A stretch of 64,000 nucleotides of DNA, taken from positions 287,138 to 351,137 of the forward strand of contig CAXRIF010000002.1 in the NCBI GenBank assembly GCA_964231325.1, read 5' to 3'. Positions 35,812 through 52,282 of this stretch are shown in pieces (the first letter of the stretch is position 1; every line of letters starts with the position of its first letter). Under the pieces are notes generated by a model. It did no database searches. It had not been told where the DNA came from and saw only the letters and a list, made by a program, of their open reading frames with translations. The stretch is from Rickettsiales bacterium (lineage in GTDB: Bacteria > Pseudomonadota > Alphaproteobacteria > Rickettsiales > SXRF01). Made by a program: the position numbers and the translations under genes.

Positions 35812-38205
35812 ATGGTGAAAAGACGCACGGTAGCCAAAAAATCAACTGCAAAAAAAACGACTAAGGCTAAGGCGAAGCCTAAGAAGCCGGTCAAAAAGAC
35901 GGCTGCAAAAAAGGTAGCAAAGAAACCTGCTGCCAAGAAAAAAGTCGTAGCGAAGAAAAAGCCTGCAAAAAAAGTGGCTAAGAAGCCGGTTAAAAAGACG
36001 GTAGCAAAGAAGAAGCCTGCCGCCAAGAAACCAGCCAAAAAATCCGTAGCGAAGAAAAAGCCTGTGAAGAAGGTAGCCAAAAAACCGGTTAAGAAAGTAG
36101 CAAAGAAAACCACTTCCAAAACCGCGAAAAAAGTCGTAGCGAAGAAATCACCCGTTAAAAAAACAAAGCCTAGCAAAGCTTCTGTCAAAAAAGTTCAACC
36201 TAAAACCAAGAAGAAAACGCAAGTAGTGAGCAAGAAACCCGTAAAAAAAGCTGAAAAAATCAGCAAAACAAAAACACAAAATACCAAGAAAAAAACACCT
36301 GCCGCAAAGGAAACGGCGGCGAAGAAAGACACCGCAACGAAGGAACTTAAAGTTACCTTGGTGCGTAAGCTTCTGGCCATGGGTAAGGATAATGGCTACA
36401 TCACCTATGATGATCTGAATGGTGTATTGCCTCCTAAGGAATTTTCACCAGAAGTGATCGATGCAGCCATTGCGGCACTCGCACAATCGGACATTCAAGT
36501 AGTAGAAGAAGCGCCTGAAGCAGAAGAGAAAGAAGAGAAAGAAGAAGTTGAAAACACTGGCCGTTCGGATGATCCGGTGCGCATGTATTTGCGCGAGATG
36601 GGCAATGTAGAACTGCTTTCACGCGAAGGTGAGATTGAAATTGCGAAACGCATTGAAGCAGGCCGCGAAACCGTAATCAGCGCATTATGCGAATGCCCAC
36701 TGGTGATGAAGGAAATTCTTTCATGGCGCGATGAGCTTGATGCGGGCACCATGTTACTGCGTGACATTATCGACCTTGATGCCACCTATGGCGCGGGTAA
36801 TGATTCCAATGATTTTTCCGAAGAGATGGAAGAGGAAGAATTGGATGATGAGGACGTTGATGACGAAGATTCTGATGATGATGAGGATGAAGACGGCGAA
36901 GACGAAGATGAAACAGAAGAGGAAGAAGATGATACTACCGTCTCGCTTCTGGCTATGGAAACCGCCCTTAAACCTCAAATCCTAGAAACGCTCGATCAGT
37001 TTGCCAAGATCAGTAAGAAAATGCGCAATCTGCAAGAGAAGCGCCTGTCTAAGTCAATTGGTGAAGGCAAATACAGCAAGGATGATGAAAAGCTGTATCA
37101 AAAGCACCATCGCGACCTGGTGGAGCTGATGATGGGTGTACGTTTTACCATATATCGTGTGGAAAGCCTGATCTTAAAACTATACGTCATTCACCGTGAG
37201 TTAACCTCGCTGGAAACACGCTTGTTGAAACTGGCAGAAGCTCGCAAGGTGCCACGCAAAGCCTTTGTAGACGCTTATATGGGGCATGAGCTAGATCCGC
37301 ATTGGTTCAGAAAGCTAGGCCAGCGCAAGGAAAAAGGCTGGAAAGAATTTATAGCCAAAGACCGTAAAGAAATTGATGGTATCCGCGATGAAATGGGTAA
37401 GATCGCAGAAGCCGCTGGCTTGGAACTGGCTGAATTTAAGCGTATGATCCTTGCCGTACAAAAAGGTGAGCGTGACACGAATCGCGCGAAAAAGGAAATG
37501 ATCGAAGCGAACTTACGTTTGGTTATTTCTATTGCCAAGAAATATACTAACCGTGGCCTACAGTTCCTTGACCTTATTCAGGAGGGTAACATCGGCCTGA
37601 TGAAAGCGGTGGATAAGTTTGAATATCGCCGTGGCTATAAATTCTCGACCTATGCTACCTGGTGGATTCGTCAGGCCATTACGCGCTCTATTGCCGATCA
37701 GGCACGTACCATCCGTATTCCTGTGCACATGATCGAAACCATCAATAAAATCGTCCGCACCTCGCGTCAGATGCTGCATGAAATTGGCCGTGAACCAACG
37801 CCGGAAGAGCTAGCTGAGCGTCTGGTGATGCCACTGGATAAGGTGCGCAAGGTGATGAAAATTGCCAAGGAGCCCGTATCGCTGGAAACCCCGATTGGTG
37901 ATGAAGAGGATTCGCATCTGGGTGACTTCATTGAAGATAAAAATGCAGTGTTACCACTCGATGCAGCCATTCACAGCAACCTGCGCGAAACCACCACTCG
38001 AATTCTCGCCTCACTTACCCCGCGTGAAGAGCGTGTGCTGCGTATGCGTTTTGGTATCGGCATGAACACCGATCACACATTGGAAGAAGTGGGCCAGCAA
38101 TTCTCAGTAACGCGTGAGCGTATCCGTCAGATTGAGGCCAAAGCGCTGCGTAAATTGAAACACCCTAGCCGCTCTCGTAAACTTCGTAGTTTCCTGGATT
38201 ATTAA
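35812..38205 (+). CDS. rpoD: RNA polymerase sigma-70 factor RpoD with a roughly 175-aa Lys/Ala/Pro-rich N-terminal extension
   Basis: Regions 2-4 are canonical ([75 protein letters not shown]). No stop and no internal Met occurs between the ATG at 35812 and the region-1.1-like block [20 protein letters not shown]. Confidence 0.9.
35818..36340 (+). repeat. Coding low-complexity tandem repeats (AKKPAKK / VAKKPVKK type) inside rpoD
   Basis: GTAGCGAAGAAAAAGCCTG recurs at 35947 and 36046, 99 bp (33 codons) apart. A related GTAGCGAAGAAA lies at 36136. Translation gives ...[22 protein letters not shown]... and ...[21 protein letters not shown].... Confidence 0.85.
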
Positions 38206-38207
38206 TC

Positions 38208-38561
38208 ATGACCATCACCACCAAGCTCTACACATTGTTTAATGGCCACTTGGTCGGCACGGATCAGTTTGGTAATCGCTATTTTACGGAGAAAAAGGCA
38301 CCTAAGACACGTAAGGCAAAACGCTGGGTGATGTATAATGGAATGGCTGAACCGAGCAAGGTACCACCAGAATGGCATGGCTGGTTACATTATACACATG
38401 ATGTACCGCCATCAAAACGTACCGTATCGCACCATGGGTGGGAAAAACAGCACAAACCTAATTTAACGGGCACTCCCGGGGCTTATGTACCCCCCGGACA
38501 TACATTACGCGGCGAAGAGCGCGCAGCTTCCAGCGCAGATTACGAAGCTTGGAAACCCTAA
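38208..38561 (+). CDS. NADH:ubiquinone oxidoreductase subunit NDUFA12 (B17.2-like)
   Basis: The blocks GHLVGTDQFGNRYFTEKK...RWVMYNG...PPEWHGWLHYT match the NDUFA12 family. Confidence 0.9.
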   Translation: MTITTKLYTLFNGHLVGTDQFGNRYFTEKKAPKTRKAKRWVMYNGMAEPSKVPPEWHGWLHYTHDVPPSKRTVSHHGWEKQHKPNLTGTPGAYVPPGHTLRGEERAASSADYEAWKP

Positions 38562-39412
38562 AACATTATCCACAGCGTTACCGCTAACCAGAGCGCAATA
38601 TTAAGCAGCTGCAGCTTGTCTTTTAGTATGACCGTTTCAGGTTCCCCCCCCTGATCGTAGACATAGATAGCTTGCAAATAGCGAAACAATCCAAATGCTA
38701 CAAACGCGATAGTATAGACTAGCTCGACTTTCCCTGTTTTTTCTGCGACCTCAGCCGTATAGATGGCATAAGTAATAAGTGCCGCCCCACTTGAGATGTT
38801 TACCAACCGGTCCAGAAGCTGTCGGTTGTAGTGCTGAAGATTTGGTTTTTTTCTAACATATTCCTCAAAGCCCATTTCGTGATAGCGCTTGCCAAAACCA
38901 AGGAATAGAGCAAGCAGAAAAGTAGTCAGAATAATCCACGGAGATATTATTACACCTAGTGCATAGCACCCCATCAACACACGCAATACATAACAAGTGG
39001 CAATAAAGAACACATCTATCAAAGCAAAACGCTTCAACACAAAAGTGTATAGCAAATTCAACAATACATAAATCACCGCCACCACTGCACAAGCTGGCGG
39101 AAGTAGCGTAGCAACAAACATAGCTGCGGCCGCCAGTATGCACGCTAGCAATATTGCCTGAAAGGAAAGTATCTCCCCTGCGGCCAACGGACGTTTACAT
39201 TTCACCGGATGCAGGCGGTCTTCCTCGATATCCTTGATATCGTTACAAACATACACCACACAGGAAACGAACAGAAAACAAAGCGCAGCATAGATAGTTA
39301 GCTGCCATGCGCCCGCATCTTTAAACTGCCCAGCAAAAAACAATGGCGCAAAAACAAACAGATTCTTGATCCATTGTTTGGGCCGAAGTAAACGCAATGT
39401 CGCCGGCATCAT
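38558..39412 (-). CDS. UbiA-family prenyltransferase resembling decaprenyl-phosphate phosphoribosyltransferase (DPPR synthase, Rv3806c-like)
   Basis: The N-terminus is LLRPKQWIKNLFVFAPLFFAG. The Asp-rich motif NDIKDIEEDRLHPVKCKRPLAAGEI closely parallels the mycobacterial NDxxDxxxDxxHPxKxxRPxAAG motif. The stop overlaps the convergent NDUFA12 stop by 4 nt. Confidence 0.75.
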   Translation of the reverse strand: MMPATLRLLRPKQWIKNLFVFAPLFFAGQFKDAGAWQLTIYAALCFLFVSCVVYVCNDIKDIEEDRLHPVKCKRPLAAGEILSFQAILLACILAAAAMFVATLLPPACAVVAVIYVLLNLLYTFVLKRFALIDVFFIATCYVLRVLMGCYALGVIISPWIILTTFLLALFLGFGKRYHEMGFEEYVRKKPNLQHYNRQLLDRLVNISSGAALITYAIYTAEVAEKTGKVELVYTIAFVAFGLFRYLQAIYVYDQGGEPETVILKDKLQLLNIALWLAVTLWIMF

Positions 39413-40506
39413 TCTGCATTATCCTTCTTCATACTTTGTATAAAAACAGGGGATTGATAGATTCCCGTACCCACTACCAGTGTATGCGTTACCAACATGA
39501 GCAAGAGTGGCATGATATCAAAAAACACTCGATACTCGCCAGGGTATCCATACAGTACATAAGCCAGATAATAAGGTGGAATCAGCCATAATCCAACTTT
39601 TAAGAAATCGGGCTTATTCTTCCAATTAAAGGTAAGCATAAACATAATAACGGAAATACCAATCAACTGAAAATACTTCGATTTACCAAGTATATCTCTG
39701 GTCAATATCCTAAATGTGTTATTCTCTAAAAAGGGGCCCGGATTACTAGAAAACGCATCGTAAATCGCGCCGCGAATGACTATGAAAATCGCACATTGCA
39801 ATAAAAGCAACATAATGTACTGGCGCGCGGGGATACGCTTGTAGAACCAGAACATAAAGAATAATGTTAAAAAGACAGCTGTTTCTTTATTGAGACAAGC
39901 AAAAGCAAACAACGCTATATATAATGAGAGATTTCGTCGTGCTATACATAGGTAGCAAGCAGTTGAAAAAAACAACAATGGAATATCGTATATATATATC
40001 CATTGCCAACTAAATGACGTAATCGCAAACATGCCAAAGATCGGAGCAAAATACCACATCGCTTGTTGTTGTGCGAAGAGGTGTTTGGCTAACAGGTACA
40101 TGGCGATGATATATCCCCAGAGACAAATATATATCAAAACGGTTGTAACTAATCGTTTATAGACACTGTCTTTATAAACCGTTTTAAGCCCGGGCAAATA
40201 TTTGTGTATAGTTTTGTTATTGTTCAACCACTCTTTGAACCCATCTCCAATATTTTGCCTTACATATTTCGGCGTCAAATCATCAATAAAAACGGTCATA
40301 CGTGGAATGAATACGCGATACACAAACGGTTTCCACGCTGTGCCTTTCATCATGGCGTTATAACTCGTCCGGTAATATTTATCCCCCAGGTTGGAGCCAT
40401 GCAGGAAGTGAAGCATCGCATAAATTGACATCACAAAATACACCACACCAAAGATCAGGTGTAATTTGTTCCTGCCAACGAATGATATAGTGCCGTTAAG
40501 TGTCAT
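39409..40506 (-). CDS. Polytopic membrane protein (365 aa), putative GT-C-type glycosyltransferase inferred from context only
   Basis: It has about 10 predicted TM helices. It is a paralog of the upstream gene (shared FVYRVFIP/YVYRVLMP block and C-terminal GYPGEYRVFFDIMPLL.....THTL). Its stop overlaps the UbiA start. It is visibly AT-rich. Confidence 0.6.
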   Translation of the reverse strand: MTLNGTISFVGRNKLHLIFGVVYFVMSIYAMLHFLHGSNLGDKYYRTSYNAMMKGTAWKPFVYRVFIPRMTVFIDDLTPKYVRQNIGDGFKEWLNNNKTIHKYLPGLKTVYKDSVYKRLVTTVLIYICLWGYIIAMYLLAKHLFAQQQAMWYFAPIFGMFAITSFSWQWIYIYDIPLLFFSTACYLCIARRNLSLYIALFAFACLNKETAVFLTLFFMFWFYKRIPARQYIMLLLLQCAIFIVIRGAIYDAFSSNPGPFLENNTFRILTRDILGKSKYFQLIGISVIMFMLTFNWKNKPDFLKVGLWLIPPYYLAYVLYGYPGEYRVFFDIMPLLLMLVTHTLVVGTGIYQSPVFIQSMKKDNAE

Positions 40507-41581
40507 TTATTCTTCTTCTCATTCCACACATGTTAGTTGTAACGGCAAGCGTGTGTGTTGCCAATAGGGCAATGATAGGAACTGCCTCAAAAAACACCCT
40601 ATATTCCCCCGGTTTTCCAAATAGCATGTAAGAAACCCACATTAGCCCTACGACCCACAGCCCCTTACGAGCAAAAACCGGCTTTTCACGGAAGCGGAAG
40701 AACAACAAAAAAGCCCCCGCCAGCAGCAATAGATATGTTTGCCAGTGATATATGTTCCATAACACATCAAACTGCCATGTCTGATAGTCTGTCTTGAGGA
40801 ATACCCCAACATTGCTTGCAAACACGTAGCCAGTCACAATCTTCACCAGAGCAAGGGTCATGAATTGCGTAGTAAGATGTGTCAGTAGCTGTTTATGCTC
40901 CATGCGCCCAAACTGCCATATGGCAAACATGAGGGCGACAAATAAAGCTGATTCCTTGTTAACGCAGGCAAGCACAAACCATACATAATACCACCGCCAT
41001 TTTGCTGTATAGAGTGCGTAAAAACAGGCGGCCGTAAGCGCTAAGGTTGATGCATCATAAATATAGGCCACCCGACCCGCGAGTGGAGGTACCATGGCCA
41101 ACGCAACTAGCGGCACGCAGCGCGCGATGACAGGGTTATCCTTATAGAGCTGCCTGCCTAATTTATACATAGCCACTGTGAAACTGGCCATACAGCCTAA
41201 CATAAGCGACATAGCGACTAAGCGCATATAAAGCGTCTTTGTGTTGGCCATCGCCCGTTGCATACGTCGATCGGGTGGAAGCCAGGAATAATCCTGCCTT
41301 GCCAGCGCATCATTTACAGTATGTTCAATGGTTTCAGGGGTAAGTGCAACGATGGTTTTAACCGTGATGGGCATTAACACACGATACACATACGGGCGTT
41401 CAGCGGTACCCTCTACCATAGCGGGCAGGGTTGCTCCACGCCAGCTATCGCCCATATGAGAAGAGGACATAAGCGAGATAGCCGCCCATAGCGTAAACAA
41501 CACATAGAGCGCAAAGAACGCAATATTTACCGCGTAGCGTTTAAGCAATAGCCTGTCTTCCTGATGCTTGTTAAGTGCCAC
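40496..41581 (-). CDS. Polytopic membrane protein (361 aa), paralog of 39409..40506
   Basis: It has a GTG start at 41581 and about 10 TM helices. The C-terminal block is GKPGEYRVFFEAVPIIALLATHTLAV. It overlaps the downstream paralog by 11 nt. Confidence 0.6.
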   Translation of the reverse strand: MALNKHQEDRLLLKRYAVNIAFFALYVLFTLWAAISLMSSSHMGDSWRGATLPAMVEGTAERPYVYRVLMPITVKTIVALTPETIEHTVNDALARQDYSWLPPDRRMQRAMANTKTLYMRLVAMSLMLGCMASFTVAMYKLGRQLYKDNPVIARCVPLVALAMVPPLAGRVAYIYDASTLALTAACFYALYTAKWRWYYVWFVLACVNKESALFVALMFAIWQFGRMEHKQLLTHLTTQFMTLALVKIVTGYVFASNVGVFLKTDYQTWQFDVLWNIYHWQTYLLLLAGAFLLFFRFREKPVFARKGLWVVGLMWVSYMLFGKPGEYRVFFEAVPIIALLATHTLAVTTNMCGMRRRINDT

Positions 41582-41655: not shown

Positions 41656-42120
41656 ATGCAAAAAAATGTTATTGAAACCCTGATGGGCGCCGTAGTGCTA
41701 ATTGTTGCTGGCACGTTTCTTTTCGTCGCATATGAAGGCAGCCAACTACGTGTGGAAGATGGCTACAAGGTAAATGCACATTTTTCTGATGCCTCGGGCA
41801 TTGCTCTGGGTAGTGATGTTCGTATTGGTGGCGTTAAAGTCGGTGTCATCTCAGATATCACCCTTGATTCTGATACGTATGAAGCCGTGGTCAATATGCA
41901 AATACGCGAGCGCACCAAGCTTCCGAAAGATTCCTCGGCTGCTATTGTGAGCAGTGGTTTATTGGGTGATAAATTTGTGCAGGTTACCCCCGGCGCGGAT
42001 GATAAAATGTTAAATGACGGTGATAAAATCGAATACACCCAATCTGCAGTTAATCTCGAAGAAATGATTGGCAAATTTATGTTTAGTGGCGGTGGCGTAG
42101 ATAGCGAAAAAACTGAATAG
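41656..42120 (+). CDS. mlaD: Outer-membrane lipid asymmetry maintenance protein MlaD (MCE domain)
   Basis: An N-terminal TM helix is followed by the MCE core (GIALGSDVRIGGVKVGVISDITLD...YEAVVNMQI, GLLGDKFVQVTPG). Confidence 0.85.
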   Translation: MQKNVIETLMGAVVLIVAGTFLFVAYEGSQLRVEDGYKVNAHFSDASGIALGSDVRIGGVKVGVISDITLDSDTYEAVVNMQIRERTKLPKDSSAAIVSSGLLGDKFVQVTPGADDKMLNDGDKIEYTQSAVNLEEMIGKFMFSGGGVDSEKTE

Positions 42121-42122
42121 TT

Positions 42123-42536
42123 ATGCGCCTGCATCTTCTTACATGTTGTGCATTACTCGCCACCTCTTCTGCCTTCGCAGAAGAGCCAGATAAGAAGCCG
42201 GAATATAACCATGTCGTTCTGCAGGGGCTAAACAAAGTCACCGGCCATATTTCCAAATTTGATGGGGAGCTAGACACCATATTGCATTTCGGCAATCTGG
42301 AAATCGTCCCCCGCCGCTGCTGGAAAGCACCACCTGAAGAGCGACCGGAAAATGCTGCATTACTAGAGATATCTGAGACCAGACAGGGCGAGCAGCCTGA
42401 ACGTATTTTTATGGGCTGGATGTTTTCTTCAAGTCCCGGCCTGTCTGGGGTTGAGCACGCGGTTTATGATATTACCGTGCTGGAATGCAGGACGGAAAAA
42501 GCCTCTGAGAAGCCAGCGGAGAATAAAGAAGGCTAA
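42123..42536 (+). CDS. DUF2155 domain protein (secreted)
   Basis: It has a signal peptide (ATSSAFA-EE). The blocks LQGLNKVTGHISKFD...FGNLEIVPRRCWKAPPEERPENAALLEI are typical of DUF2155. It lies 2 nt after mlaD. Confidence 0.8.
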   Translation: MRLHLLTCCALLATSSAFAEEPDKKPEYNHVVLQGLNKVTGHISKFDGELDTILHFGNLEIVPRRCWKAPPEERPENAALLEISETRQGEQPERIFMGWMFSSSPGLSGVEHAVYDITVLECRTEKASEKPAENKEG

Positions 42537-45798: not shown

Positions 45799-46923
45799 AT
45801 GGAAATCACTGACCTGCTCGTATTTACGCAAAAGAACAATGCGTCCGACTTACATTTGGCATCTACTAATCCGCCAATTTTGCGTATCCACGGCGAAATG
45901 ATGCCCTATAAATCACCTCCCCTTACTTCTGATGATATTAAACGCATGCTCTATTCCATTATGACAGAGCAGCAGCGCGCTGATTATGAGCGCGACTTTG
46001 AAATCGATTTTGCGATATCTTTTGGTGAGGAAATGCGTTTTCGTGTCAACGCATTTAATACATTGAATGGCCCCGCAGCTGTGTTGCGTACTATTCCAAA
46101 TCGCATTCTGTCTATGGAAGAACTAGGTACGCCTGAGGTGCTAAAAAAGCTATGTTATCTACATAAGGGACTGATTCTGGTAACAGGCCCTACCGGCTCT
46201 GGTAAGTCCACCACACTTGCCGCCATGATCGACCATATCAATACTAACGAAGCTAAGCACATTATCACTATTGAAGATCCGGTGGAGTTTGTACATCAAT
46301 CTAAAAAATCCCTGATCAATCAACGCGAAGTAGGCAAAGACACCAAGTCATTTGCCAAGGCACTCCGTTCCGCGTTGCGTGAGGATCCCGATGTGATTCT
46401 GGTGGGTGAGTTACGTGATATCGAAACCATTCAACTTGCGTTGACCGCAGCGGAAACAGGCCACTTGGTGATGGGCACGTTGCACACCAACTCAGCACCG
46501 AAGACTATTGACCGTATTATCGACGTATTCCCGGCAAATGACAAAGAAATGGTACGCGCCATGCTTTCCGTATCACTGGAGGCAGTAATCACCCAATCAC
46601 TTCTTAAACGCAAAGATGGTGGCCGTGTAGCTGCTCATGAAATCATGCTGGGAACTGGTGCAGTGCGCAACCTCGTGCGTGAAGGCAAAGTGCCACAGCT
46701 TTACTCACTCATTCAAATCGGCAGTAAAATTGGTATGAGAACCATGAAAGACAGCATCATGGCGCTATTTGAGGAAGGCATCATTACAGAGCAAACGGTG
46801 CGTGCAGCTATGGCTACCAGCACCTCGGAAGATGAAGGAGAAACCGAAACACCAAAAACGGATAACAAGGCAGGCAATAACAAGCGCACCAGCGGTGTAA
46901 GGCCTGTTCATAGCGGATTCTAG
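45799..46923 (+). CDS. pilT: Type IV pilus retraction ATPase PilT
   Basis: It has Walker A (GPTGSGKSTT), the Asp box, Walker B (ILVGELRD) and the His box (GHLVMGTLHTNSA). The PilT-typical N-terminus is LLVFTQKNNASDLHL. Confidence 0.95.
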   Translation: MEITDLLVFTQKNNASDLHLASTNPPILRIHGEMMPYKSPPLTSDDIKRMLYSIMTEQQRADYERDFEIDFAISFGEEMRFRVNAFNTLNGPAAVLRTIPNRILSMEELGTPEVLKKLCYLHKGLILVTGPTGSGKSTTLAAMIDHINTNEAKHIITIEDPVEFVHQSKKSLINQREVGKDTKSFAKALRSALREDPDVILVGELRDIETIQLALTAAETGHLVMGTLHTNSAPKTIDRIIDVFPANDKEMVRAMLSVSLEAVITQSLLKRKDGGRVAAHEIMLGTGAVRNLVREGKVPQLYSLIQIGSKIGMRTMKDSIMALFEEGIITEQTVRAAMATSTSEDEGETETPKTDNKAGNNKRTSGVRPVHSGF

Positions 46924-46927
46924 CAAC

Positions 46928-48061
46928 ATGGAAATGAACGCCAATAGTTTACTGCAAGGATTTACCGATAAGGATGCCACCGATCTTTATCTCACAGTAG
47001 GCGCCCCTCCTTCTTTGCGTTATGGTCACCGCATCGAACACATAGATAAAACTAAGCTTACCGAAGAGCATGTTAAAAGCTTTTTGAAAGAAATTGTGTC
47101 CTCCGATGTGTTGGAAGAGTTTGAATCTACCTTGGAATATAACACCGCGATCAACTGGCCGGAACTGGGGCGTTTTCGCGTTAATATGTTCCGCCAGCGT
47201 CAGAACACTGGTGTCGTATTACGTCGTATTCGCACTGATATCCCTTCTATTGAATCGCTAAATCTGCCGCCGCTTTATTCCGACCTTATCATGGAAAAAC
47301 GTGGTTTGATATTAGTGGTAGGCCCTACCGGTTCGGGGAAATCAACTTCACTGGCAGCCATGCTAGAGTATCGTAATAATAATGGTTCTGGCCATATTGT
47401 AACCATTGAAGATCCAGTAGAATTTGTTCTCGAACATAAGAACTGTATCATTACACAGCGTGATGTCGGTATTGATACTTATTCGTTCGGCATCGGCCTA
47501 AAAAACACTCTACGCCAGACACCCGACGTTATCGTGATTGGTGAGATCCGCGACAGAGAAACTATGGAACATGCCATTGTGTTTGCTGAAACCGGCCATC
47601 TATGCCTTGCTACATTGCATGCCAATAATGCTAACCAAGCCATTGAGCGTGTAATCAATTTCTTCCCTGAAGAGAAACATGCGCAAGTATTGTTAAATCT
47701 ATCACTTAACCTGAAGGCAATTCTCTCACAACGTCTACTTCCTAACCTGCAAGGTACACGTTCTATTGCACTAGAGATCATGCTCAATCAAGGCCTAGTG
47801 AAAAGCCTGATCCATGAGGGGCGCATTAAAGAACTTAAGGAATGTATTGAAAAAGGTCAGGATGTCGGCATGCAGAGTTTCGATCAGGCGTTGGTTGAGA
47901 TGTATGCTAATGGCGTTATCACCGAGGATGTCGCTCTGGCAGAATCTGATAACCCCGCCAACTTACGCCTTGCCATTAAACAGCATGATATGGGCAAAGG
48001 CCAAGGCCCGCTCCGTAGCCTCGCCCAAGATATGGGCATCATTAATAAGCAACAGTTCTAA
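46928..48061 (+). CDS. pilU: PilT-family ATPase, PilU-like
   Basis: This is a second PilT paralog (GPTGSGKSTS, IVIGEIRD, GHLCLATLHANNANQAIERV), starting 4 nt after the pilT stop. Confidence 0.85.
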   Translation: MEMNANSLLQGFTDKDATDLYLTVGAPPSLRYGHRIEHIDKTKLTEEHVKSFLKEIVSSDVLEEFESTLEYNTAINWPELGRFRVNMFRQRQNTGVVLRRIRTDIPSIESLNLPPLYSDLIMEKRGLILVVGPTGSGKSTSLAAMLEYRNNNGSGHIVTIEDPVEFVLEHKNCIITQRDVGIDTYSFGIGLKNTLRQTPDVIVIGEIRDRETMEHAIVFAETGHLCLATLHANNANQAIERVINFFPEEKHAQVLLNLSLNLKAILSQRLLPNLQGTRSIALEIMLNQGLVKSLIHEGRIKELKECIEKGQDVGMQSFDQALVEMYANGVITEDVALAESDNPANLRLAIKQHDMGKGQGPLRSLAQDMGIINKQQF

Positions 48062-48802
48062 CTACGCTGCTTTTTTCGCTTCATCTTTAGAAATAGAGTT
48101 CAGGAAGGCTTTCTCCAGCGAATCATCCTGATACTGTTTTTTGAATTCTGCTGGTGTGCCAATAAAGAATAATTTGCCTTCATGAATCACCCCAATACGA
48201 TCGCAAATTTCGTCAATGTCAGAGAGAATATGTGAGCTAAAGAATATCGTTTTATCGCGTGTGCGCGCATCTATGAGCATGTTTTTAAGCTTAATACGCG
48301 CGCTAGGGTCCAGCCCACTCATCGGTTCATCTAAAATAAGCAAACGCTCATCTATCATAAATGCACCAAGTAAACCCAACTTTTGTCCCATCCCTTTGGA
48401 ATATGAGCCTACCCGTGCATCAAGCACATTGGGATCCAAATCTAACGCTACCGCATTTTCTTTTGCCTGCTCTCGGTCCAGTTTCTTGCCGTAGTATGAT
48501 AGTGCCAAGGTCAGATATTCCATCCCCTTCAGGTAACGCGATGGCTGGAACTTTTCTGGCAAGTACGACAGATGTTTACGCGCACTAATACTAGTAGAGG
48601 CAATATCAAAAATTGATGTTTTCCCTTTATCGGCCTTCACCAAATCAAGGGCTATTTTAATCAAGGTAGTTTTTCCTGCACCGTTCAGGCCGATCAGTCC
48701 AAAAATCTCGCCCGGATTTAGCGAAAAGCTAATATCCTCAAGTACCTTACGTTCATCATATTTTTTGTGTACGCCATCTATAGATAATGGGGAATGACTC
48801 AT
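48062..48802 (-). CDS. ABC transporter ATP-binding protein (ABC-2/DrrA-like), with no adjacent permease
   Basis: It has Walker A (GLNGAGKTT), the signature motif (YSKGMGQKL) and Walker B (LLILDEP). It is the last gene of the pilB operon, and its stop abuts the pilU stop. Confidence 0.9.
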   Translation of the reverse strand: MSHSPLSIDGVHKKYDERKVLEDISFSLNPGEIFGLIGLNGAGKTTLIKIALDLVKADKGKTSIFDIASTSISARKHLSYLPEKFQPSRYLKGMEYLTLALSYYGKKLDREQAKENAVALDLDPNVLDARVGSYSKGMGQKLGLLGAFMIDERLLILDEPMSGLDPSARIKLKNMLIDARTRDKTIFFSSHILSDIDEICDRIGVIHEGKLFFIGTPAEFKKQYQDDSLEKAFLNSISKDEAKKAA

Positions 48803-48804
48803 AT

Positions 48805-49602
48805 TTACTCCTTTACCTCGTCACCTTCTCCTGAGCCCAACTTAGAATACGCGTCAATCAACCCGCCCAAACCTGTTCGAGATGGATCATCATCCTCTTG
48901 GTTAAAAAATGGATCTCCTGAATCTACAGGAGAAGGATCTAGAACCTCTGAAGGTGGTTCCAACGAAATATTGTGTGTATCAACAGTTACTGGCTGTACC
49001 TTACCTTCCAGTATATTCATTACATAAGAAGAAAAGGTCTGATTTACCCTAAGTGTAAAGATCACCTCTCCTCTGCGCTTATATACTTCAACGTTATCAT
49101 TTTCCATTTTCTGCCAGGTCTCATTTACCTTGTGCATAGAGACCGGTTTCCATTTCAGGCGAACCATATCCTCATTGATCTCCATCACACTCAGATCGGT
49201 ATTCTCCATTGGGCTGCTTTGTGTCAATTTCTGCCCATTAACCCATATAATCCAGTTATCTTCCGCATGGTAAACGATAGATTCCAAAAAGAATTGTGGG
49301 TATTTATAATAACGGTTTGTTTCCTGCGCTTTTCTGATACCCGTAAGACGATTGAGAAAATCTTCTTCATCAAAACCACCGTCATCTCTGCGGCCCGACG
49401 AATTTTTCTTATATATATTCATCGCATAATTAATATCTGCCGTTTCTTCTGGTGTAAAAAACAGGCTTCCTATCTTTATTGGCTCATTATTGTTTTCAGG
49501 TAGCGTTTCACTATTTGCAGACGGTGCGCTCTGCGCATTAGCAGCACCAGACGTCAGCATCAAACAAGCACAAAGCAGAGCTATATGGCGAACAACTACC
49601 AT
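48805..49602 (-). CDS. Secreted protein (265 aa), PilP/GspC-HR-like by pattern
   Basis: It has a signal peptide (GAANA-QS). The block LESIVYHAEDNWIIWVNGQKL...DLSVMEINEDMVRLKW resembles the beta-domain pattern of PilP/GspC. The C-terminus is acidic. Confidence 0.45.
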   Translation of the reverse strand: MVVVRHIALLCACLMLTSGAANAQSAPSANSETLPENNNEPIKIGSLFFTPEETADINYAMNIYKKNSSGRRDDGGFDEEDFLNRLTGIRKAQETNRYYKYPQFFLESIVYHAEDNWIIWVNGQKLTQSSPMENTDLSVMEINEDMVRLKWKPVSMHKVNETWQKMENDNVEVYKRRGEVIFTLRVNQTFSSYVMNILEGKVQPVTVDTHNISLEPPSEVLDPSPVDSGDPFFNQEDDDPSRTGLGGLIDAYSKLGSGEGDEVKE

Positions 49603-50285
49603 CTGCGGCGCCTTCCTCTGCGTTTACGTGACTGTTCCTGACGTTTAGCCTCCTCTGGATCAAGTGAGTTTATACCATACCACTTAAAATTGATGGTACT
49701 CTCAACCAGGTTATAACTTCCATTCTGGGTAATAGAACGTAACGCTTCATCTGTTAGGCCACTTACACGTTCTAGCTGTATTCCAGTAAAGCTTACCGCT
49801 CCAGGATAGTTTTCCTGTATATCCCGCATAAAGCGATATACATCTTCATCATTCGCTGCCTGAAAGCGCAGAGTGGCATCTGTAGTCATCAACACACTGG
49901 TTTTACGCTTGTATTTTGCATCCTCATGTGCAGTCGGTTCGGCAATATTTAATTGGGTCTCTCCACCAACAAGATTATGTGTGTATTCGTATTCTCTATT
50001 TAAGTGATCCGCTATTCCCATTGTGTGGGAAAGCATATCCTCTTCATTAAGGCGCATCACTTTTTCATATAGATCAATATCATTTTGTACACGTATATAT
50101 TTTTCACGAAGCCCATTTGTTTCGTTAGTAACGGCACTTACCTGTGCCTCCATATTTCTTTTTCTTGAAATATACTCATCTTGCATGGTGCTAATAAAAT
50201 ACGTACCGCCACCTATTACAGCCAGAATAGCTCCTGCAAAACTACCCTCGAAAATCAGCTGTCTTTTTAACTGCTGAAACTTCAT
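49596..50285 (-). CDS. Bitopic membrane protein (229 aa), PilO-like by architecture
   Basis: It has a short cytoplasmic N-terminus, one TM helix (FAGAILAVIGGGTYFI), a predicted coiled coil and an alpha/beta domain (ATLRFQAANDEDVYRFMRDIQENYPGAVSF). Its start overlaps the upstream stop (ATGA). Confidence 0.45.
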   Translation of the reverse strand: MKFQQLKRQLIFEGSFAGAILAVIGGGTYFISTMQDEYISRKRNMEAQVSAVTNETNGLREKYIRVQNDIDLYEKVMRLNEEDMLSHTMGIADHLNREYEYTHNLVGGETQLNIAEPTAHEDAKYKRKTSVLMTTDATLRFQAANDEDVYRFMRDIQENYPGAVSFTGIQLERVSGLTDEALRSITQNGSYNLVESTINFKWYGINSLDPEEAKRQEQSRKRRGRRRRW

Positions 50286-52057
50286 GGCGCATTCCCCTCT
50301 GAAGGTGAACTTACAGGCTCTTCTGGTGCTGGCACTAGCGGCCCATAAATCATCAGCGTTTCTTCAACCGGCTCTGCATTCGTAATGTCCCCTGGCATCG
50401 GAATAGCCTCATTAGCTGAACTAATGCTTAACTGTCTTCCCGCTCTTTCAATATCTGCTAACGATTTTTCTGCCTCTACTTCGTAACCCGGCAACTTTCT
50501 GCGGAAATCACCCATGATACGATTCAACACAAATCTACGAGCCTTACTATCAGATACAACGGCAGGGAGCTCTACAACCAACGTTACCGTTACCCATTTA
50601 TTTTTTGAGTCACCTGCTTTTGCCGTTTGCATACGTTGTAGAGCCACAGGATCAATATTTCTTGGTAAGCGCATCCTGCCATCTTGCTTATCAACCTGTA
50701 TTGAGATGGATTTCAATGTCATTGGCGGCACAATCAATGGCTTAATCTTTTCGATCAACGGTAATAGCGTATCATTTTCTTCCTGAAGATATTTATATAG
50801 GTCAATCAGATCGGTTGCTTTTTCTACATCCAGATTTTTGCGTGCTATTTCGTTTTTGAGTGCCGTGAGTGTATTTTGCTCGGTCTTTTTTTGTCGTTCG
50901 AGCCGCTCTAAATCACCGCTGATACCCATAATATCAGCCCCCATGTATCCCGAATAGCCAATCATCCCAACCGTCCCTACTACCGTTACCAAACGAAGCA
51001 AAACCTTCAGGTTAAATGCTGTATCTATTTTTTTGTATTCCGGAACAGCAAGGGTAAGGCGGTGCCTTTTTGCACAACCAATAATAGAGGCAAGCACCAC
51101 ATCACCAAACTGATCGGTGGCTTGCGTCGCTCCCTCTATATTGAAAAATTGTGCCATTTCAAATGGCGTGAATACCTGCGTACTACTTGCAGAAAATTTT
51201 TGCGTATCGATGGCATCCTTAATGCCTGCCGAGGCCAGAATATAGATATCCAGCCCTGCTTGCGGGTTATAAGAAAGGCGCTTCATATATTCAATAGTCG
51301 AGAGTATTTCCTGCTCAATACTGCCCGTTATTACTTCGGTATTTGTTTCGCCAAGCGGTTGCGCCAGACGGGTAAATACGATTTTGCCTTTATGCAGTAT
51401 AACCTGGCGGAACCCTCCCACTTTGTTATGACTAACAAAGAATTTCCATTCTGCACCCGTACCCTCTTTAGGCACGCCAATAGCTTTTTCCAGCGTTTTG
51501 AGAAATATTTCAGTTTCAGCTGAAATAAGATGAATGCCCTTAAAGCGATTGGGCAGCTCCATGACAAAGTCTAACCACACCGATAGTTGCGGGCTGCGCT
51601 CCAGCGCAATCATCATGAAGTTCCAGTCCTTGCGGCCTGTTTTTTCACGCCCCAGTATCATCGCCCCTTTAATATCCTCTGGGCCAAAATCACGATCCAA
51701 CCTGCGTTTCACCAGCTTGCCAACGCTCATCGCCGAAACAGGTGGCAAGGTTTGCTGCACGTAGGATTGATCCATACTATCGATCACTAAAAGCACTGGG
51801 GCTTTAGGGTCTTTTTCAATCGTCTGCTTTAATTCTTCAAGGTTTTGTTCGCTGGCATCCGGACAGAACTGGCGACTGAGCACCTGATTATCCTTGATAT
51901 AAACAAGAATTGCACCTTCATCGCCAATGAAAAAGACAAAACGCGTCCCCTTCGCTGCCCTGAATACCTTACCTTTAGGGGGCACGCGCTCAGCGGTGTT
52001 CTTGGTTTCCGCTTCCTTTTTATCTTTCTTAAGGCGTTTTTTAAAACTAAAGGCCAT
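50282..52057 (-). CDS. PilM-PilN fusion-like / GspL-like protein (591 aa)
   Basis: The ATG at 52057 has a GGAG Shine-Dalgarno. A cytoplasmic domain of about 370 aa (FVFFIGDEGAILVYIKDN..., actin/PilM-like pattern) is followed by one TM helix (LLRLVTVVGTVGMIGYSGYM), a coiled coil and a periplasmic domain. Confidence 0.5.
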   Translation of the reverse strand: MAFSFKKRLKKDKKEAETKNTAERVPPKGKVFRAAKGTRFVFFIGDEGAILVYIKDNQVLSRQFCPDASEQNLEELKQTIEKDPKAPVLLVIDSMDQSYVQQTLPPVSAMSVGKLVKRRLDRDFGPEDIKGAMILGREKTGRKDWNFMMIALERSPQLSVWLDFVMELPNRFKGIHLISAETEIFLKTLEKAIGVPKEGTGAEWKFFVSHNKVGGFRQVILHKGKIVFTRLAQPLGETNTEVITGSIEQEILSTIEYMKRLSYNPQAGLDIYILASAGIKDAIDTQKFSASSTQVFTPFEMAQFFNIEGATQATDQFGDVVLASIIGCAKRHRLTLAVPEYKKIDTAFNLKVLLRLVTVVGTVGMIGYSGYMGADIMGISGDLERLERQKKTEQNTLTALKNEIARKNLDVEKATDLIDLYKYLQEENDTLLPLIEKIKPLIVPPMTLKSISIQVDKQDGRMRLPRNIDPVALQRMQTAKAGDSKNKWVTVTLVVELPAVVSDSKARRFVLNRIMGDFRRKLPGYEVEAEKSLADIERAGRQLSISSANEAIPMPGDITNAEPVEETLMIYGPLVPAPEEPVSSPSEGNAP

Positions 52058-52282
52058 TTTACTCCACATCCGGATACGCATATGTTGTAGCTGTATTTGC
52101 AATGATTTTCAACGAATATTGCAGAAAAATCATCAACATAATCCTTACCGAAGCCGTTACCTGTGATTCGCTAGCCTGTAGCAAATGCGAAGCGTTATTG
52201 AGAACCACCACGCAAGCGTACTGATCGGTACGCGCGTAGTGGAAGCGCAAATAACGCAAGTAAGTTCCTCAGGATAGTAGAA

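What the first reader, a model, noticed from the sequence alone, without database searches (positions are those of the whole stretch)
38558..41581. DPPR-synthase-like prenyltransferase plus two paralogous polytopic membrane proteins between NDUFA12 and mlaD
Seen: three minus-strand genes are translationally coupled (11-nt and 4-nt overlaps). The last one overlaps the convergent NDUFA12 stop by 4 nt. The UbiA enzyme carries NDIKDIEEDRLHPVKCKRPLAAGEI, very close to the Rv3806c family. The two upstream proteins are paralogs with about 10 TM helices each (shared YVYRVL.P and G.PGEYRVFF...THTL blocks), and I cannot assign them a family. Established: Rv3806c makes decaprenyl-phospho-ribose-5-P, the precursor of the DPA arabinofuranose donor. 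GT-C enzymes use such lipid-linked donors. P. aeruginosa Pa5196/PA7 uses a homologous pathway and the GT-C enzyme TfpW to arabinosylate its type IV pilin. My recollection is that NDUFA12, mlaD and DUF2155 are usually contiguous in alphaproteobacteria. Inference: an inserted envelope or pilin pentofuranosylation module. No DprE1/DprE2 epimerase is nearby, so the donor could be polyprenyl-phospho-ribose.
Basis: partly seen in the sequence, partly recalled or inferred. Interest (0 to 1): 0.7.

Follow-up and report, generated by a model that had tools for sequence, protein, structure and literature searches.

The report
Lipid-linked ribose synthase with novel transferases
Three overlapping genes in an uncultured alphaproteobacterium encode an enzyme that loads phosphoribose onto a membrane lipid carrier, plus two copies of an undescribed small membrane protein predicted to pass that sugar on to the cell envelope; this is a stripped-down variant of a pentose-decorating system first described in 2024.

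Summary
Three minus-strand genes (38558-41581) overlap by 4 and 11 nt and sit between NDUFA12 and mlaD.

The 284-aa UbiA protein is a polyprenyl-phosphate phosphoribosyltransferase (PPPRS/DPPRS). It matches M. tuberculosis Rv3806c at E 1e-34 and keeps 11 of 13 substrate-binding residues.

The two upstream proteins are paralogs (29% identity, E 7e-53). They belong to a large family with no Pfam model: about 3,000 clusters at 50% identity. A confident AlphaFold model (pLDDT 94) resembles only GT-C glycosyltransferases (STT3, ALG9, PglB, ALG12, Pmt4, AftD). Its invariant residues all lie in periplasmic loops.

Family members sit next to PPPRS genes in three separate alphaproteobacterial gene arrangements. 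One of these is a full DprE1/DprE2/GH183 D-arabinan-type cluster.

The site is polymorphic among relatives: no insert, UbiA alone, UbiA plus one membrane protein, or UbiA plus two.

No phosphatase, epimerase or flippase was found in the window, by homology search or among the ORFs screened. The donor is most likely polyprenyl-P-ribofuranose, or a derivative made by genes elsewhere. The acceptor is unknown, and pilin is unsupported.

This is a new variant of the known three-component pentofuranosylation systems (Kelly et al. 2024).

The parts
38558..39412 (-). Polyprenyl-phosphate 5-phosphoribosyltransferase (PPPRS/DPPRS-type UbiA-superfamily enzyme), 284 aa, with no fused phosphatase domain
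   Evidence: Pfam UbiA E 2.4e-26. NCBIfam DPPRS NF008977 scores 232.8 bits against a cutoff of 234. PDB 8j8j (Rv3806c) matches at E 1.4e-34 over residues 4-278. Eleven of 13 Rv3806c ligand-binding residues are identical (alignment; residue list from PMC10994848).
39409..40506 (-). MP-B: 365-aa polytopic membrane protein with a predicted GT-C-like fold. It is the more widely conserved partner of the UbiA gene and a candidate periplasmic pentofuranosyltransferase.
   Evidence: AlphaFold pLDDT 94.2, pTM 0.92. Six of the seven best Foldseek PDB hits are GT-C enzymes. Invariant residues are P60, R64, P68, D174, N206, E208, G320, E324, R326. There is no Pfam family; only a weak NF046093 match. The ortholog is present wherever a membrane protein accompanies UbiA at this site.
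40496..41581 (-). MP-A: 361-aa paralog of MP-B (GTG start). It is a tandem duplicate found only in a sub-clade.
   Evidence: BLASTP against MP-B gives 29% identity, E 7e-53. It keeps all family-invariant residues. It is present in L001-L010 and absent in L011-L015, L017 and L058; L016 is cut at the contig end.
41582..41655 (.). 74-bp intergenic region between the divergent MP-A and mlaD genes; presumed promoter region for the three-gene operon (inferred only)
   Evidence: Sequence. The consensus promoter scan found no site in this region and no excess over shuffles overall.
38208..38561 (+). NDUFA12 gene: left boundary of the insert, with its stop overlapping the UbiA stop by 4 nt
   Evidence: Pfam NDUFA12 E 9e-28 and NCBIfam NF006040 159.5 bits.
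41656..42536 (+). mlaD (41656-42120) and the DUF2155 gene (42123-42536): right boundary of the insert
   Evidence: TIGR04430 MlaD 165.9 bits and Pfam DUF2155 E 4e-26. These genes directly follow NDUFA12 in L054, L055 and L057.

Best explanation
The three genes form an operon for periplasmic pentofuranosylation of an envelope glycoconjugate. Step 1 is well supported. The UbiA-type enzyme transfers ribose-5-phosphate from cytoplasmic PRPP to a polyprenyl phosphate, giving polyprenyl-P-ribofuranose-5-P. Step 2 is inferred, and its genes are not in the module: the 5-phosphate is removed and the lipid-linked sugar is flipped to the periplasmic face. If DprE1/E2-type or other epimerases exist elsewhere in the genome, the sugar could be converted to Araf or Xylf first. 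Otherwise the donor is polyprenyl-P-Ribf. Step 3 is inferred from fold, topology and gene neighbourhood. MP-B and its duplicate MP-A are small GT-C-fold transferases of an undescribed family. They transfer the pentofuranose from the lipid donor to acceptors on the periplasmic side, using conserved periplasmic-loop residues (R64, D174, N206/E208, E324/R326, and in this subfamily D42 just after TM1). The two paralogs probably serve two acceptor sites or linkages. The acceptor is unknown. LPS or another envelope glycan is the default guess by analogy with the known three-component systems.
For: UbiA as a PPPRS. The residues equivalent to Rv3806c R22, K28, Y70, N73, D77, K87, R90, Y138, K143, Y157 and K191 are identical, and Q135 is replaced by N (alignment). 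These include the phosphoribose-specific residues that ordinary UbiA prenyltransferases lack.

Operon structure: 4-nt and 11-nt overlaps.

MP fold: a confident model with a helical domain after TM1. Six of the seven best Foldseek hits are GT-C enzymes: STT3, ALG9, PglB and ALG12 at probability 0.97-1.0 and TM 0.42-0.49. Pmt4, PimE and AftD appear further down. Non-GT-C hits have TM of about 0.15.

Topology: the short loops rich in K/R are cytoplasmic, and every invariant polar residue falls in a periplasmic loop.

Gene neighbourhood: MP-family members adjoin PPPRS genes in three different arrangements. (a) This NDUFA12|mlaD locus, in 15 or more genomes. (b) L041: HAD-PPPRS fusion, then MP, then an ArnE/F-like flippase, then a PMT_2 GT-C. 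(c) L033, Pelagibacterium halotolerans: MP beside DprE2-like, DprE1-like, HAD-PPPRS, flippase-like, TMEM260-like GT-C and DUF4185/GH183 endo-D-arabinanase genes. The L033 and L041 proteins match the family profile over its full length, at E 2e-22 and 1e-36, and keep the motifs. In Acidobacteriota, homologs sit next to GT2 and PMT_2 genes. The weak but recurrent match to NCBIfam 'cell surface glycopolymer formation protein' occurs in 20 of 36 distant members.

Precedent for the chemistry: PMC11127046.
Against: The GT-C assignment rests on a predicted structure with marginal Foldseek E-values (0.04-0.14). No sequence or profile similarity to any GT-C family was found: Pfam and NCBIfam, a PDB profile search, and hhalign against two neighbouring GT-C proteins.

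The Asp just after TM1 is conserved only in the close subfamily, not across the whole family.

In L033 and L041 a classical GT-C is also present, so the MP protein there could be an accessory.

Three lineages carry UbiA alone at this site. Most family members outside Alphaproteobacteria have no PPPRS nearby. The pairing is therefore not obligatory.

No phosphatase, flippase or epimerase was found in the 64-kb window or in relatives' flanks. Not every ORF in the window was screened. The pathway as drawn needs unidentified genes.
Confidence: 0.6

Rival explanations
1. The MP proteins are not glycosyltransferases. They handle the lipid-linked intermediate in another way, for example as a flippase or scramblase for polyprenyl-P-ribose(-5-P), or as a scaffold. 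The actual transferase is encoded elsewhere.
For: The module has no dedicated flippase. L033 and L041 contain classical GT-C genes in addition to the MP homolog. There is no sequence similarity to any GT family.
Against: The fold matches are specifically to GT-C enzymes, not to MOP, SMR, GtrA or MprF-type flippases. L041 and L033 already have their own flippase-like genes beside the MP gene. The invariant charged residues cluster on one (periplasmic) face, as in an active site, rather than lining a translocation path.
Confidence: 0.15
2. UbiA and the MP genes are neighbours by history only. UbiA supplies a lipid-linked pentose to GT-C enzymes elsewhere in the genome, and the MP proteins use a different polyprenyl-P-sugar donor.
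For: UbiA occurs alone at the same site in L052, L053 and L056. Most MP-family members, in Acidobacteriota and Chloroflexota, have no PPPRS nearby and sit beside GT2 or GT4 genes.
Against: The start and stop codons overlap (translational coupling) in the window. The adjacency is retained at 57-68% UbiA identity across the clade. Two further independent MP-PPPRS adjacencies involve a different PPPRS subfamily, PRK08238.
Confidence: 0.12
3. This is a TfpW-like type IV pilin arabinosylation (or ribosylation) module.
For: Type IV pilus genes lie in the window: pilT/U-like at 45799-48061, pilC and pilB at 52283-55302, and an N-methyl-motif protein at 25356-26132. P. aeruginosa uses a PPPRS pathway for pilin D-Araf (PMC11127046).
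Against: No pilin gene is adjacent, whereas tfpW-type genes sit beside pilA (own knowledge). The same TPR and pilT neighbours are present in L055 and L057, which lack the module, so that linkage is background synteny. No DprE1/E2 homologs were found nearby. The MP proteins are small and lack the extra periplasmic domain typical of protein-modifying oligosaccharyltransferases.
Confidence: 0.06
4. The UbiA protein is an aromatic, quinone or heme prenyltransferase, and the block has nothing to do with glycans.
For: It belongs to the UbiA superfamily. Its score is 1.2 bits below the NCBIfam DPPRS equivalog cutoff.
Against: The next-best non-PRTase models score 62 bits or less, against 233 for DPPRS. 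The best PDB hit is Rv3806c at E 1e-34, against 2e-4 for a prenyltransferase. The residues that bind the phosphoribose 5-phosphate and ribose (K28, Y70, Q135, Y157 equivalents) are not conserved in UbiA prenyltransferases, yet all but one are identical here (Q135 is N).
Confidence: 0.02

Closest known systems
Three-component extracytoplasmic pentofuranosylation systems (Citrobacter youngae O1/O2 ORF15 PPPRS-PRP, ORF14 flippase, ORF12 GT-C/GT136; Kelly et al. 2024, PMC11127046)
   Same: A UbiA-type PPPRS is encoded together with polytopic GT-C-fold protein(s). The predicted logic is the same: PRPP to polyprenyl-P-Ribf(-5-P), then periplasmic transfer. No epimerase is needed if ribofuranose is the sugar added.
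   Different: The PPPRS here has no fused HAD/PRP phosphatase, and no 4-TM flippase gene is present. The GT-C-like partner is about 360 aa with no C-terminal carbohydrate-binding domain, matched no Pfam or NCBIfam GT-C model, and is present in two paralogous copies (not compared directly with GT136). The module sits at a housekeeping junction rather than in an O-antigen cluster. The acceptor is unknown.
Mycobacterial DPA pathway (Rv3806c DPPRS, Rv3807c, DprE1/DprE2, Rv3789, Aft/Emb GT-C arabinosyltransferases)
   Same: The first enzyme is homologous (E 1e-34), with 11 of 13 ligand-binding residues identical. Several GT-C enzymes consume one lipid-linked pentofuranose donor.
   Different: No DprE1, DprE2 or PAP2 phosphatase genes are found locally. 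The GT-C-like proteins are unrelated in sequence to Aft/Emb and a fraction of their size. The organism is a Gram-negative alphaproteobacterium with LPS (LptF/G).
Pseudomonas aeruginosa Pa5196/PA7 pilin D-Araf system (PPPRS, DprE1/E2 homologs, TfpW)
   Same: A stand-alone PPPRS without a fused phosphatase domain in a Gram-negative bacterium, with a GT-C-type final transferase.
   Different: There is no pilin adjacency, no epimerases nearby, and no evidence of a protein acceptor.
NCBIfam NF046093 'AZOBR_p60025 family cell surface glycopolymer formation protein'
   Same: This is the only curated model with any similarity. The central region containing the YD and N-K/R-E-T motifs matches weakly: E 5e-3 for the window proteins and best E 1.3e-6 among distant family members, with 20 of 36 matching.
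   Different: Scores of about 16 bits are far below the 150-bit cutoff. It is at best a sister family, and no experimental function is known to me for that family either.
GtrABC / ArnC-ArnE/F-ArnT type periplasmic modification systems
   Same: The general logic is shared: a lipid-linked monosaccharide is made in the cytoplasm, flipped, and transferred by a GT-C enzyme. Acidobacterial MP homologs sit beside GT2 and PMT_2 genes, as in those systems.
   Different: The donor synthase here is a UbiA-type PRTase that uses PRPP, not a GT2 that uses a nucleotide sugar.

Membership tests
DPPRS/PPPRS (membrane phosphoribosyltransferases of the UbiA superfamily) | UbiA-superfamily fold and domain | tested here: met
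   PF01040 E 2.4e-26, 93 bits against a cutoff of 34.2.
DPPRS/PPPRS (membrane phosphoribosyltransferases of the UbiA superfamily) | Score above the curated NCBIfam DPPRS equivalog cutoff | tested here: inconclusive
   NF008977 scores 232.8 bits against a cutoff of 234, and NF008978 scores 199.3 against 207. Both are just below cutoff but far above any other UbiA subfamily (62 bits or less).
DPPRS/PPPRS (membrane phosphoribosyltransferases of the UbiA superfamily) | Residues binding Mg2+, pyrophosphate, ribose, the 5-phosphate and the polyprenyl phosphate (Rv3806c R22, K28, Y70, N73, D77, K87, R90, Q135, Y138, K143, Y157, K191, K208) | tested here: met
   The window equivalents are R10, K16, Y54, N57, D61, K71, R74, N119, Y122, K127, Y141 and K175. 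K208 aligns to P190, with K188 and K189 adjacent. Eleven of 13 are identical and one is conservative (alignment; residue list).
DPPRS/PPPRS (membrane phosphoribosyltransferases of the UbiA superfamily) | PRPP-dependent formation of polyprenyl-P-ribose-5-P | not testable with these tools
   Requires an enzyme assay.
Three-component pentofuranosylation system (Kelly et al. 2024) | PPPRS encoded together with a GT-C-fold transferase | tested here: met
   Overlapping genes; fold evidence.
Three-component pentofuranosylation system (Kelly et al. 2024) | Phosphoribose 5-phosphatase (fused HAD/PRP domain or a separate enzyme) in the locus | tested here: not met
   UbiA is 284 aa with no HAD domain. 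tblastn with the HAD domains of L033 and L041 finds nothing in the window or in L001-L017. No PAP2 or HAD hits appear among the window ORFs that were scanned. The rest of the genome could not be searched.
Three-component pentofuranosylation system (Kelly et al. 2024) | Dedicated small (4-TM, ArnE/EmrE-like) flippase in the locus | tested here: not met
   The window has no homolog of the L041 ArnE/F-like or the L033 flippase-like proteins, and there is no such ORF inside the module.
Three-component pentofuranosylation system (Kelly et al. 2024) | The GT-C belongs to CAZy GT136 | not tested
No Pfam or NCBIfam GT-C model matches.
GT-C fold glycosyltransferase superfamily | Polytopic (7-13 TM) protein with a helical extracytoplasmic domain after TM1 | tested here: met
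   AlphaFold model of MP-B, pLDDT 94.2: TM1 at 14-41, a helical loop region at 42-114, then about 9 more membrane helices.
GT-C fold glycosyltransferase superfamily | Structural similarity to solved GT-C enzymes | tested here: met
GT-C fold glycosyltransferase superfamily | Conserved acidic catalytic residue at the start of the first extracytoplasmic loop | tested here: inconclusive
   D42 (LGD) in MP-B and the equivalent MGD in MP-A are at least 90% conserved in the close family but are not invariant across distant members. The family-wide invariants are R64, Y173-D174, N206, E208 and R326.
GT-C fold glycosyltransferase superfamily | Sequence membership of a described GT-C family (PMT_2, ArnT, STT3, Aft/Emb, DUF2079 and others) | tested here: not met
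   No Pfam hit at E<=1. Among 36 distant members there was one weak DUF2079 hit. The PDB profile search was empty. hhalign against PMT_2 and TMEM260-like neighbours gave probability 0.1.
TfpW-type pilin arabinosylation system | Transferase encoded next to the major pilin gene, with DprE1/E2-type epimerases in the pathway cluster | tested here: not met
   No pilin is adjacent, and the nearest N-methyl-motif ORF is 12 kb away. No DprE1/E2 homologs are in the window.
NCBIfam NF046093 AZOBR_p60025 family | Score at or above the 150-bit curated cutoff | tested here: not met
   15.7 and 16.2 bits.

The most novel reading that the evidence does not exclude
MP-A and MP-B found a new family of minimal GT-C glycosyltransferases: about 360 aa, no accessory periplasmic domain, more than 3,000 sequence clusters across Alphaproteobacteria, Acidobacteriota, Chloroflexota and other phyla. 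In this two-function module, which has no phosphatase and no epimerase, they would use polyprenyl-P-ribose or even polyprenyl-P-ribose-5-phosphate directly. That would place a (phospho)ribofuranosyl group on lipid A/core or another outer-membrane lipid next to the Mla system. Such an envelope modification has not yet been described.
Probability: 0.12. Interest if true: 0.7.

Novelty: new variant of a known kind. Interest (0 to 1): 0.5.

Why it matters
Pentofuranose decoration of bacterial surfaces through lipid-linked ribose was worked out only in 2024, and its authors predicted more systems in unknown glycans. This locus adds a stripped-down version. Its transferase candidates belong to a large, unannotated membrane-protein family with a very confident predicted structure.

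If the assignment holds, it would give a function, and probably a new CAZy family, to thousands of 'hypothetical' proteins. It would define one of the smallest GT-C enzymes, which is useful for structural and mechanistic work. It would also point to ribofuranose- or arabinofuranose-containing envelope glycans in uncultured Alphaproteobacteria and in the cultured Pelagibacterium halotolerans.

The graded series at one chromosomal site (no insert, UbiA, UbiA plus one MP, UbiA plus two MPs) is also a neat natural experiment for studying how such modules are built or lost.

Tried and rejected
1. Direct sequence searches of MP-A and of the family profile against PDB sequences found nothing.
2. Pfam scans of both MPs and of 36 distant members found no family. 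The sub-threshold hits (Phage_int_SAM_5, TadE, DUF2157, EamA) are noise.
4. Foldseek against viral structures gave nothing interpretable.
This was my error, and the result was an unusable model (pLDDT 51). MP-A's fold is inferred from its full-length homology to MP-B.
6. hhalign of the family profile against two neighbouring classical GT-C proteins gave no signal; the single-sequence templates give low power.
7. The search for related loci with the broad alignments A3 and A1 failed because no block was conserved enough. The narrower alignment A4 worked.
8. The promoter/terminator scan showed no excess over shuffles and was uninformative.
9. Recent horizontal transfer was considered and rejected. 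GC3 of the three genes (0.44-0.51) lies roughly within the neighbours' range (0.40-0.50). The low GC of MP-B (0.385) is consistent with its hydrophobic amino-acid composition.
10. My first impression, 'the module is universally conserved in the clade', was biased because loci had been found through the MP gene. Sampling through NDUFA12 corrected it.
11. Literature searches for AZOBR_p60025, and for DPPRS in Alphaproteobacteria, returned nothing.
12. A 136-aa ORF beside the L018 homolog was considered as a GtrA-like flippase and rejected as a spurious Arg-rich ORF.

Full report
**1. The observation**

ORF listing and direct reading of the minus strand confirm three tightly packed genes:
- UbiA, 38558-39412, 284 aa.
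- 'MP-B', 39409-40506, 365 aa.
- 'MP-A', 40496-41581, 361 aa, GTG start preceded by AAGAG.

MP-B's stop overlaps the UbiA start in ATGA (4 nt). MP-A's last codons overlap the MP-B start in ATGACACTTAA (11 nt). The convergent NDUFA12 gene (38208-38561) overlaps the UbiA stop by 4 nt. The flanks are NDUFA12, MlaD and DUF2155. MP-A and MP-B are paralogs over their full length: 29% identity, E 7e-53. All descriptive statements in the finding hold.

**2. The UbiA protein is a polyprenyl-phosphate phosphoribosyltransferase**

- Pfam places it in the UbiA superfamily.
- NCBIfam ranks the three DPPRS models and the related PRK08238 model first, at 233, 199, 173 and 140 bits. The next model (a generic prenyltransferase) scores 62 bits and heme O synthase scores 40.
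- The top score is 1.2 bits under the equivalog cutoff. I therefore treat it as a close relative rather than a curated ortholog.
- Against PDB sequences the best hit is M. tuberculosis Rv3806c (8j8j), E 1.4e-34 over residues 4-278.
- The Rv3806c structure paper (PMC10994848) lists the ligand-binding residues. I mapped them through the alignment.

| Rv3806c | Window protein | Note |
|---|---|---|
| R22 | R10 | identical |
| K28 | K16 | identical |
| Y70 | Y54 | identical |
| N73 | N57 | identical |
| D77 | D61 | identical |
| K87 | K71 | identical |
| R90 | R74 | identical |
| Q135 | N119 | conservative |
| Y138 | Y122 | identical |
| K143 | K127 | identical |
| Y157 | Y141 | identical |
| K191 | K175 | identical |
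| K208 | P190 | K188/K189 adjacent |

The paper states that the phosphoribose-binding residues are not conserved in ordinary UbiA prenyltransferases. Their presence here argues for PRPP chemistry. The quinone/heme alternative is rejected.

**3. The two membrane proteins belong to a large, undescribed family with a GT-C-like predicted fold**

- Neither protein matches any Pfam model. The only curated similarity is a weak hit (about 16 bits) to NCBIfam NF046093, 'AZOBR_p60025 family cell surface glycopolymer formation protein'.
- Word-indexed searches found only 16 and 45 relatives, all unnamed.
- An exhaustive profile search found 3,036 cluster representatives at E<=1e-3 and 796 at E<=1e-30.
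- A sample of 36 distant members has no Pfam family. Twenty of the 36 weakly match NF046093, best E 1.3e-6.
- The alignment of 56 close members (A1) has invariant P60, R64, P68, D174, N206, E208, G320, E324 and R326 (MP-B numbering), and near-invariant G41-D42.
- Across distant members the invariants reduce to R64, Y173-D174, N206, E208 and R326.
- AlphaFold with A1 gave a very confident model of MP-B: pLDDT 94.2, pTM 0.92. It has TM1, a helical region of about 70 residues, then about nine further membrane helices.
- In the Foldseek PDB search, six of the seven best hits are GT-C glycosyltransferases: yeast STT3, human ALG9, PglB and ALG12, at probability 0.97-1.0 and TM 0.42-0.49. Further STT3/OST entries, Pmt4, PimE and AftD rank lower. 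The other hits, mostly GPCRs and rhodopsins, have TM of about 0.15.
- The E-values are marginal (0.04-0.14). Sequence-profile tests against GT-C proteins were negative. The assignment is therefore at fold level only.
- Topology supports it. Short loops carrying K/R without acidic residues (RR190-191, KR..R222-227, K..K..K296-303) alternate with loops carrying the invariant D174, N206-K-E208 and E324-x-R326. This places every conserved polar residue, and the long post-TM1 domain, on the periplasmic side, where GT-C active sites lie.

**4. Gene neighbourhoods link the family to lipid-linked pentofuranose pathways**

A scan of GTDB representative genomes with the MP-B ortholog alignment returned 46 loci. 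tblastn with the six window proteins gave these patterns:
- In Alphaproteobacteria/'Rickettsiales' MAGs, the MP gene(s) and UbiA lie between mlaD and NDUFA12. L014 is an exception, with NDUFA12 elsewhere in the locus.
- L001-L010 have two MPs. L011-L015 and L017 have one, of MP-B type; L016 is cut at the contig end, so its MP count is unknown.
- Homologs in Acidobacteriota, Chloroflexota, Planctomycetota and Armatimonadota have no PPPRS within 8 kb.

Two further alphaproteobacterial loci pair an MP homolog with a different PPPRS subfamily, the HAD-fused PRK08238:
- L041 reads HAD-PPPRS, then MP, then an ArnE/F-like 4-TM protein, then a PMT_2 GT-C.
- L033, from the cultured Pelagibacterium halotolerans, has the MP homolog flanked by DUF4185 and a DprE2-like SDR. 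These are followed by a DprE1-like oxidase (353 bits), HAD-PPPRS (607 bits) and a flippase-like protein, with a TMEM260-like GT-C upstream.
- DUF4185 is the GH183 endo-D-arabinofuranase family (PMC10115798). That cluster is therefore a strong candidate for D-arabinan synthesis.

Both MP homologs match the A1 profile over its full length (E 1e-36 and 2e-22) and keep the motifs. Among 122 neighbours of the non-alphaproteobacterial homologs, GT4 (7), GT2 (4) and PMT_2 (3) were the commonest glycan-related families. GT2 plus PMT_2 flank the homolog in L018 and L025.

Three independent MP-PPPRS adjacencies, plus a general glycan context, support the view that the family consumes polyprenyl-phosphate-linked sugars.

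**5. Evolution of the site**

| State at the NDUFA12/mlaD site | Loci |
|---|---|
| NDUFA12-mlaD-DUF2155 contiguous, no insert | L054, L055, L057 |
| UbiA only (63-66% identical to the window enzyme) | L052, L053, L056 |
| UbiA plus one MP | L058, and L011-L015, L017 from the MP-based scan |
| UbiA plus two MPs | window, L001-L010 |
| NDUFA12 unlinked to mlaD | L051 |

- L055 and L057 share the whole dnaG-rpoD ... pyrD-TPR-pilT synteny of the window.
- The site therefore shows four states.
- GC3 of the three genes (0.47, 0.44, 0.51) is roughly within the neighbours' range of 0.40-0.50. UbiA divergence parallels that of MlaD and NDUFA12. The block is therefore old and mostly vertically inherited.
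- MP-A is a later tandem duplicate. An independent tandem pair exists in a Bellilinea genome.

**6. What is missing**

- tblastn with DprE1-like, DprE2-like, HAD-domain, flippase-like and ArnE/F-like proteins from L033 and L041 finds nothing in the 64-kb window or in the flanks of L001-L017.
- Pfam scans of most other window ORFs show housekeeping genes, type IV pilus genes, sulfate assimilation genes and LptF/G. None of the missing functions appears.
- Locally, then, the system is PPPRS plus GT-C-like proteins only.

**7. Mechanism proposed**

- Shown by homology: UbiA makes polyprenyl-P-ribofuranose-5-P from PRPP at the cytoplasmic face.
- Inferred: dephosphorylation and flipping by unlinked functions, with epimerisation only if unlinked epimerases exist.
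- Inferred from fold, topology and context: MP-B and MP-A transfer the pentofuranose to periplasmic acceptors.
- Open: the acceptor. LPS is made (LptF/G), and the known systems of this type modify O-antigen, so an LPS or envelope glycan is the default. The divergent mlaD neighbour is equally present without the module and carries no weight.
- A pilin target is unsupported. No pilin gene is adjacent, and the pilus genes nearby are background synteny shared with genomes that lack the module.

**8. Comparison with what is known**

Kelly et al. 2024 (PMC11127046; commentary PMC11194591) established 'three-component systems'. These consist of a PPPRS (fused to a HAD phosphatase in Citrobacter youngae), a small flippase, and a GT-C (GT136). 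Together they add alpha-Ribf, or Xylf/Araf with epimerases, from undecaprenyl-P-pentofuranose in the periplasm. Polyprenyl-P-ribose as a direct donor is therefore established, and the authors noted further candidate systems of unknown product.

The present locus works like these systems but differs in five ways:
- It has a stand-alone PPPRS.
- It has no local phosphatase or flippase.
- Its GT-C-like partner comes from an unannotated family of minimal size.
- That partner is duplicated.
- The module sits at a housekeeping chromosomal junction, with graded gene content among relatives.

It is not shown to be a member of GT136, Aft/Emb, ArnT or TfpW. I file it as a new variant of a known kind.

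**9. Verdict**

| Claim | Confidence |
|---|---|
| UbiA is a PPPRS | about 0.9 |
| MPs are GT-C-fold transferases coupled to it | about 0.6-0.65 |
| Acceptor class | low |

Interest is moderate (0.5). The main value is a testable function for a large 'hypothetical' membrane-protein family, with a cultured organism (Pelagibacterium halotolerans) in which to test it.

Noticed in passing
window 35812-36330 (start of rpoD, 35812-38205): The primary sigma factor (797 aa) begins with about 170 residues of Lys/Ala/Pro-rich [11 protein letters not shown] repeats, resembling a histone H1 tail, before region 1.1. This produces the AT-skew peak (0.41) at 35.5-36.5 kb. RpoD genes in relatives are similarly long (741-809 aa).
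   Followed up: no
L033:4135-13442 (Pelagibacterium halotolerans ABH-592, CP085243, about 3.134-3.143 Mb): A cultured marine alphaproteobacterium carries a candidate D-arabinofuranose glycan cluster. It contains a TMEM260-like GT-C, DUF4185/GH183 endo-D-arabinanase, an MP-family protein, a DprE2-like SDR, a DprE1-like oxidase, a HAD-PPPRS fusion and an MprF-type flippase-like protein.
   Followed up: partly
L041:1765-5942 (Alphaproteobacteria MAG_CPA_01): A compact four-gene system: HAD-PPPRS fusion, MP-family protein, ArnE/F-like 4-TM flippase subunit and a PMT_2 GT-C. It is a complete 'three-component' pentofuranose system plus an MP homolog.
   Followed up: partly
L052:5359-6216, L053:5406-6263, L056:5342-6193: An orthologous PPPRS (63-66% identical) sits alone between NDUFA12 and mlaD, with no adjacent MP gene. 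The PPPRS can therefore persist at this site without a linked transferase.
   Followed up: partly
L020:1695-4098 (Bellilinea sp., Chloroflexota): An independent tandem pair of MP-family genes lies in a different phylum, so duplication of this family recurs.
   Followed up: no
window 45799-48061, 52283-55302, 25356-26132: Type IV pilus machinery is present: two PilT/PilU-like ATPases, PilC (T2SSF), PilB (T2SSE with MshEN domain) and an unusually long (258 aa) protein with an N-terminal methylation motif. The TPR-pilT block is syntenic in relatives with and without the module.
   Followed up: partly
window 48805-52102 (-): Three consecutive ORFs (265, 229 and 606 aa) upstream of an ABC ATPase gene (48062-48802) have no Pfam match. 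In relative L002 the position beyond the two pilT-like genes holds a 657-aa Wzy_C protein instead of the ABC ATPase found here.
   Followed up: no
window 38558-38561: The convergent genes NDUFA12 and UbiA share overlapping stop codons (4 nt), leaving no intergenic space for terminators on either strand. The same tight or overlapping convergence is seen in L001 and L056.
   Followed up: no
window 3512-5706 (-): LptF/LptG-type permease gene(s) are present, so the organism exports LPS. This is relevant to the choice of candidate acceptors.
   Followed up: no
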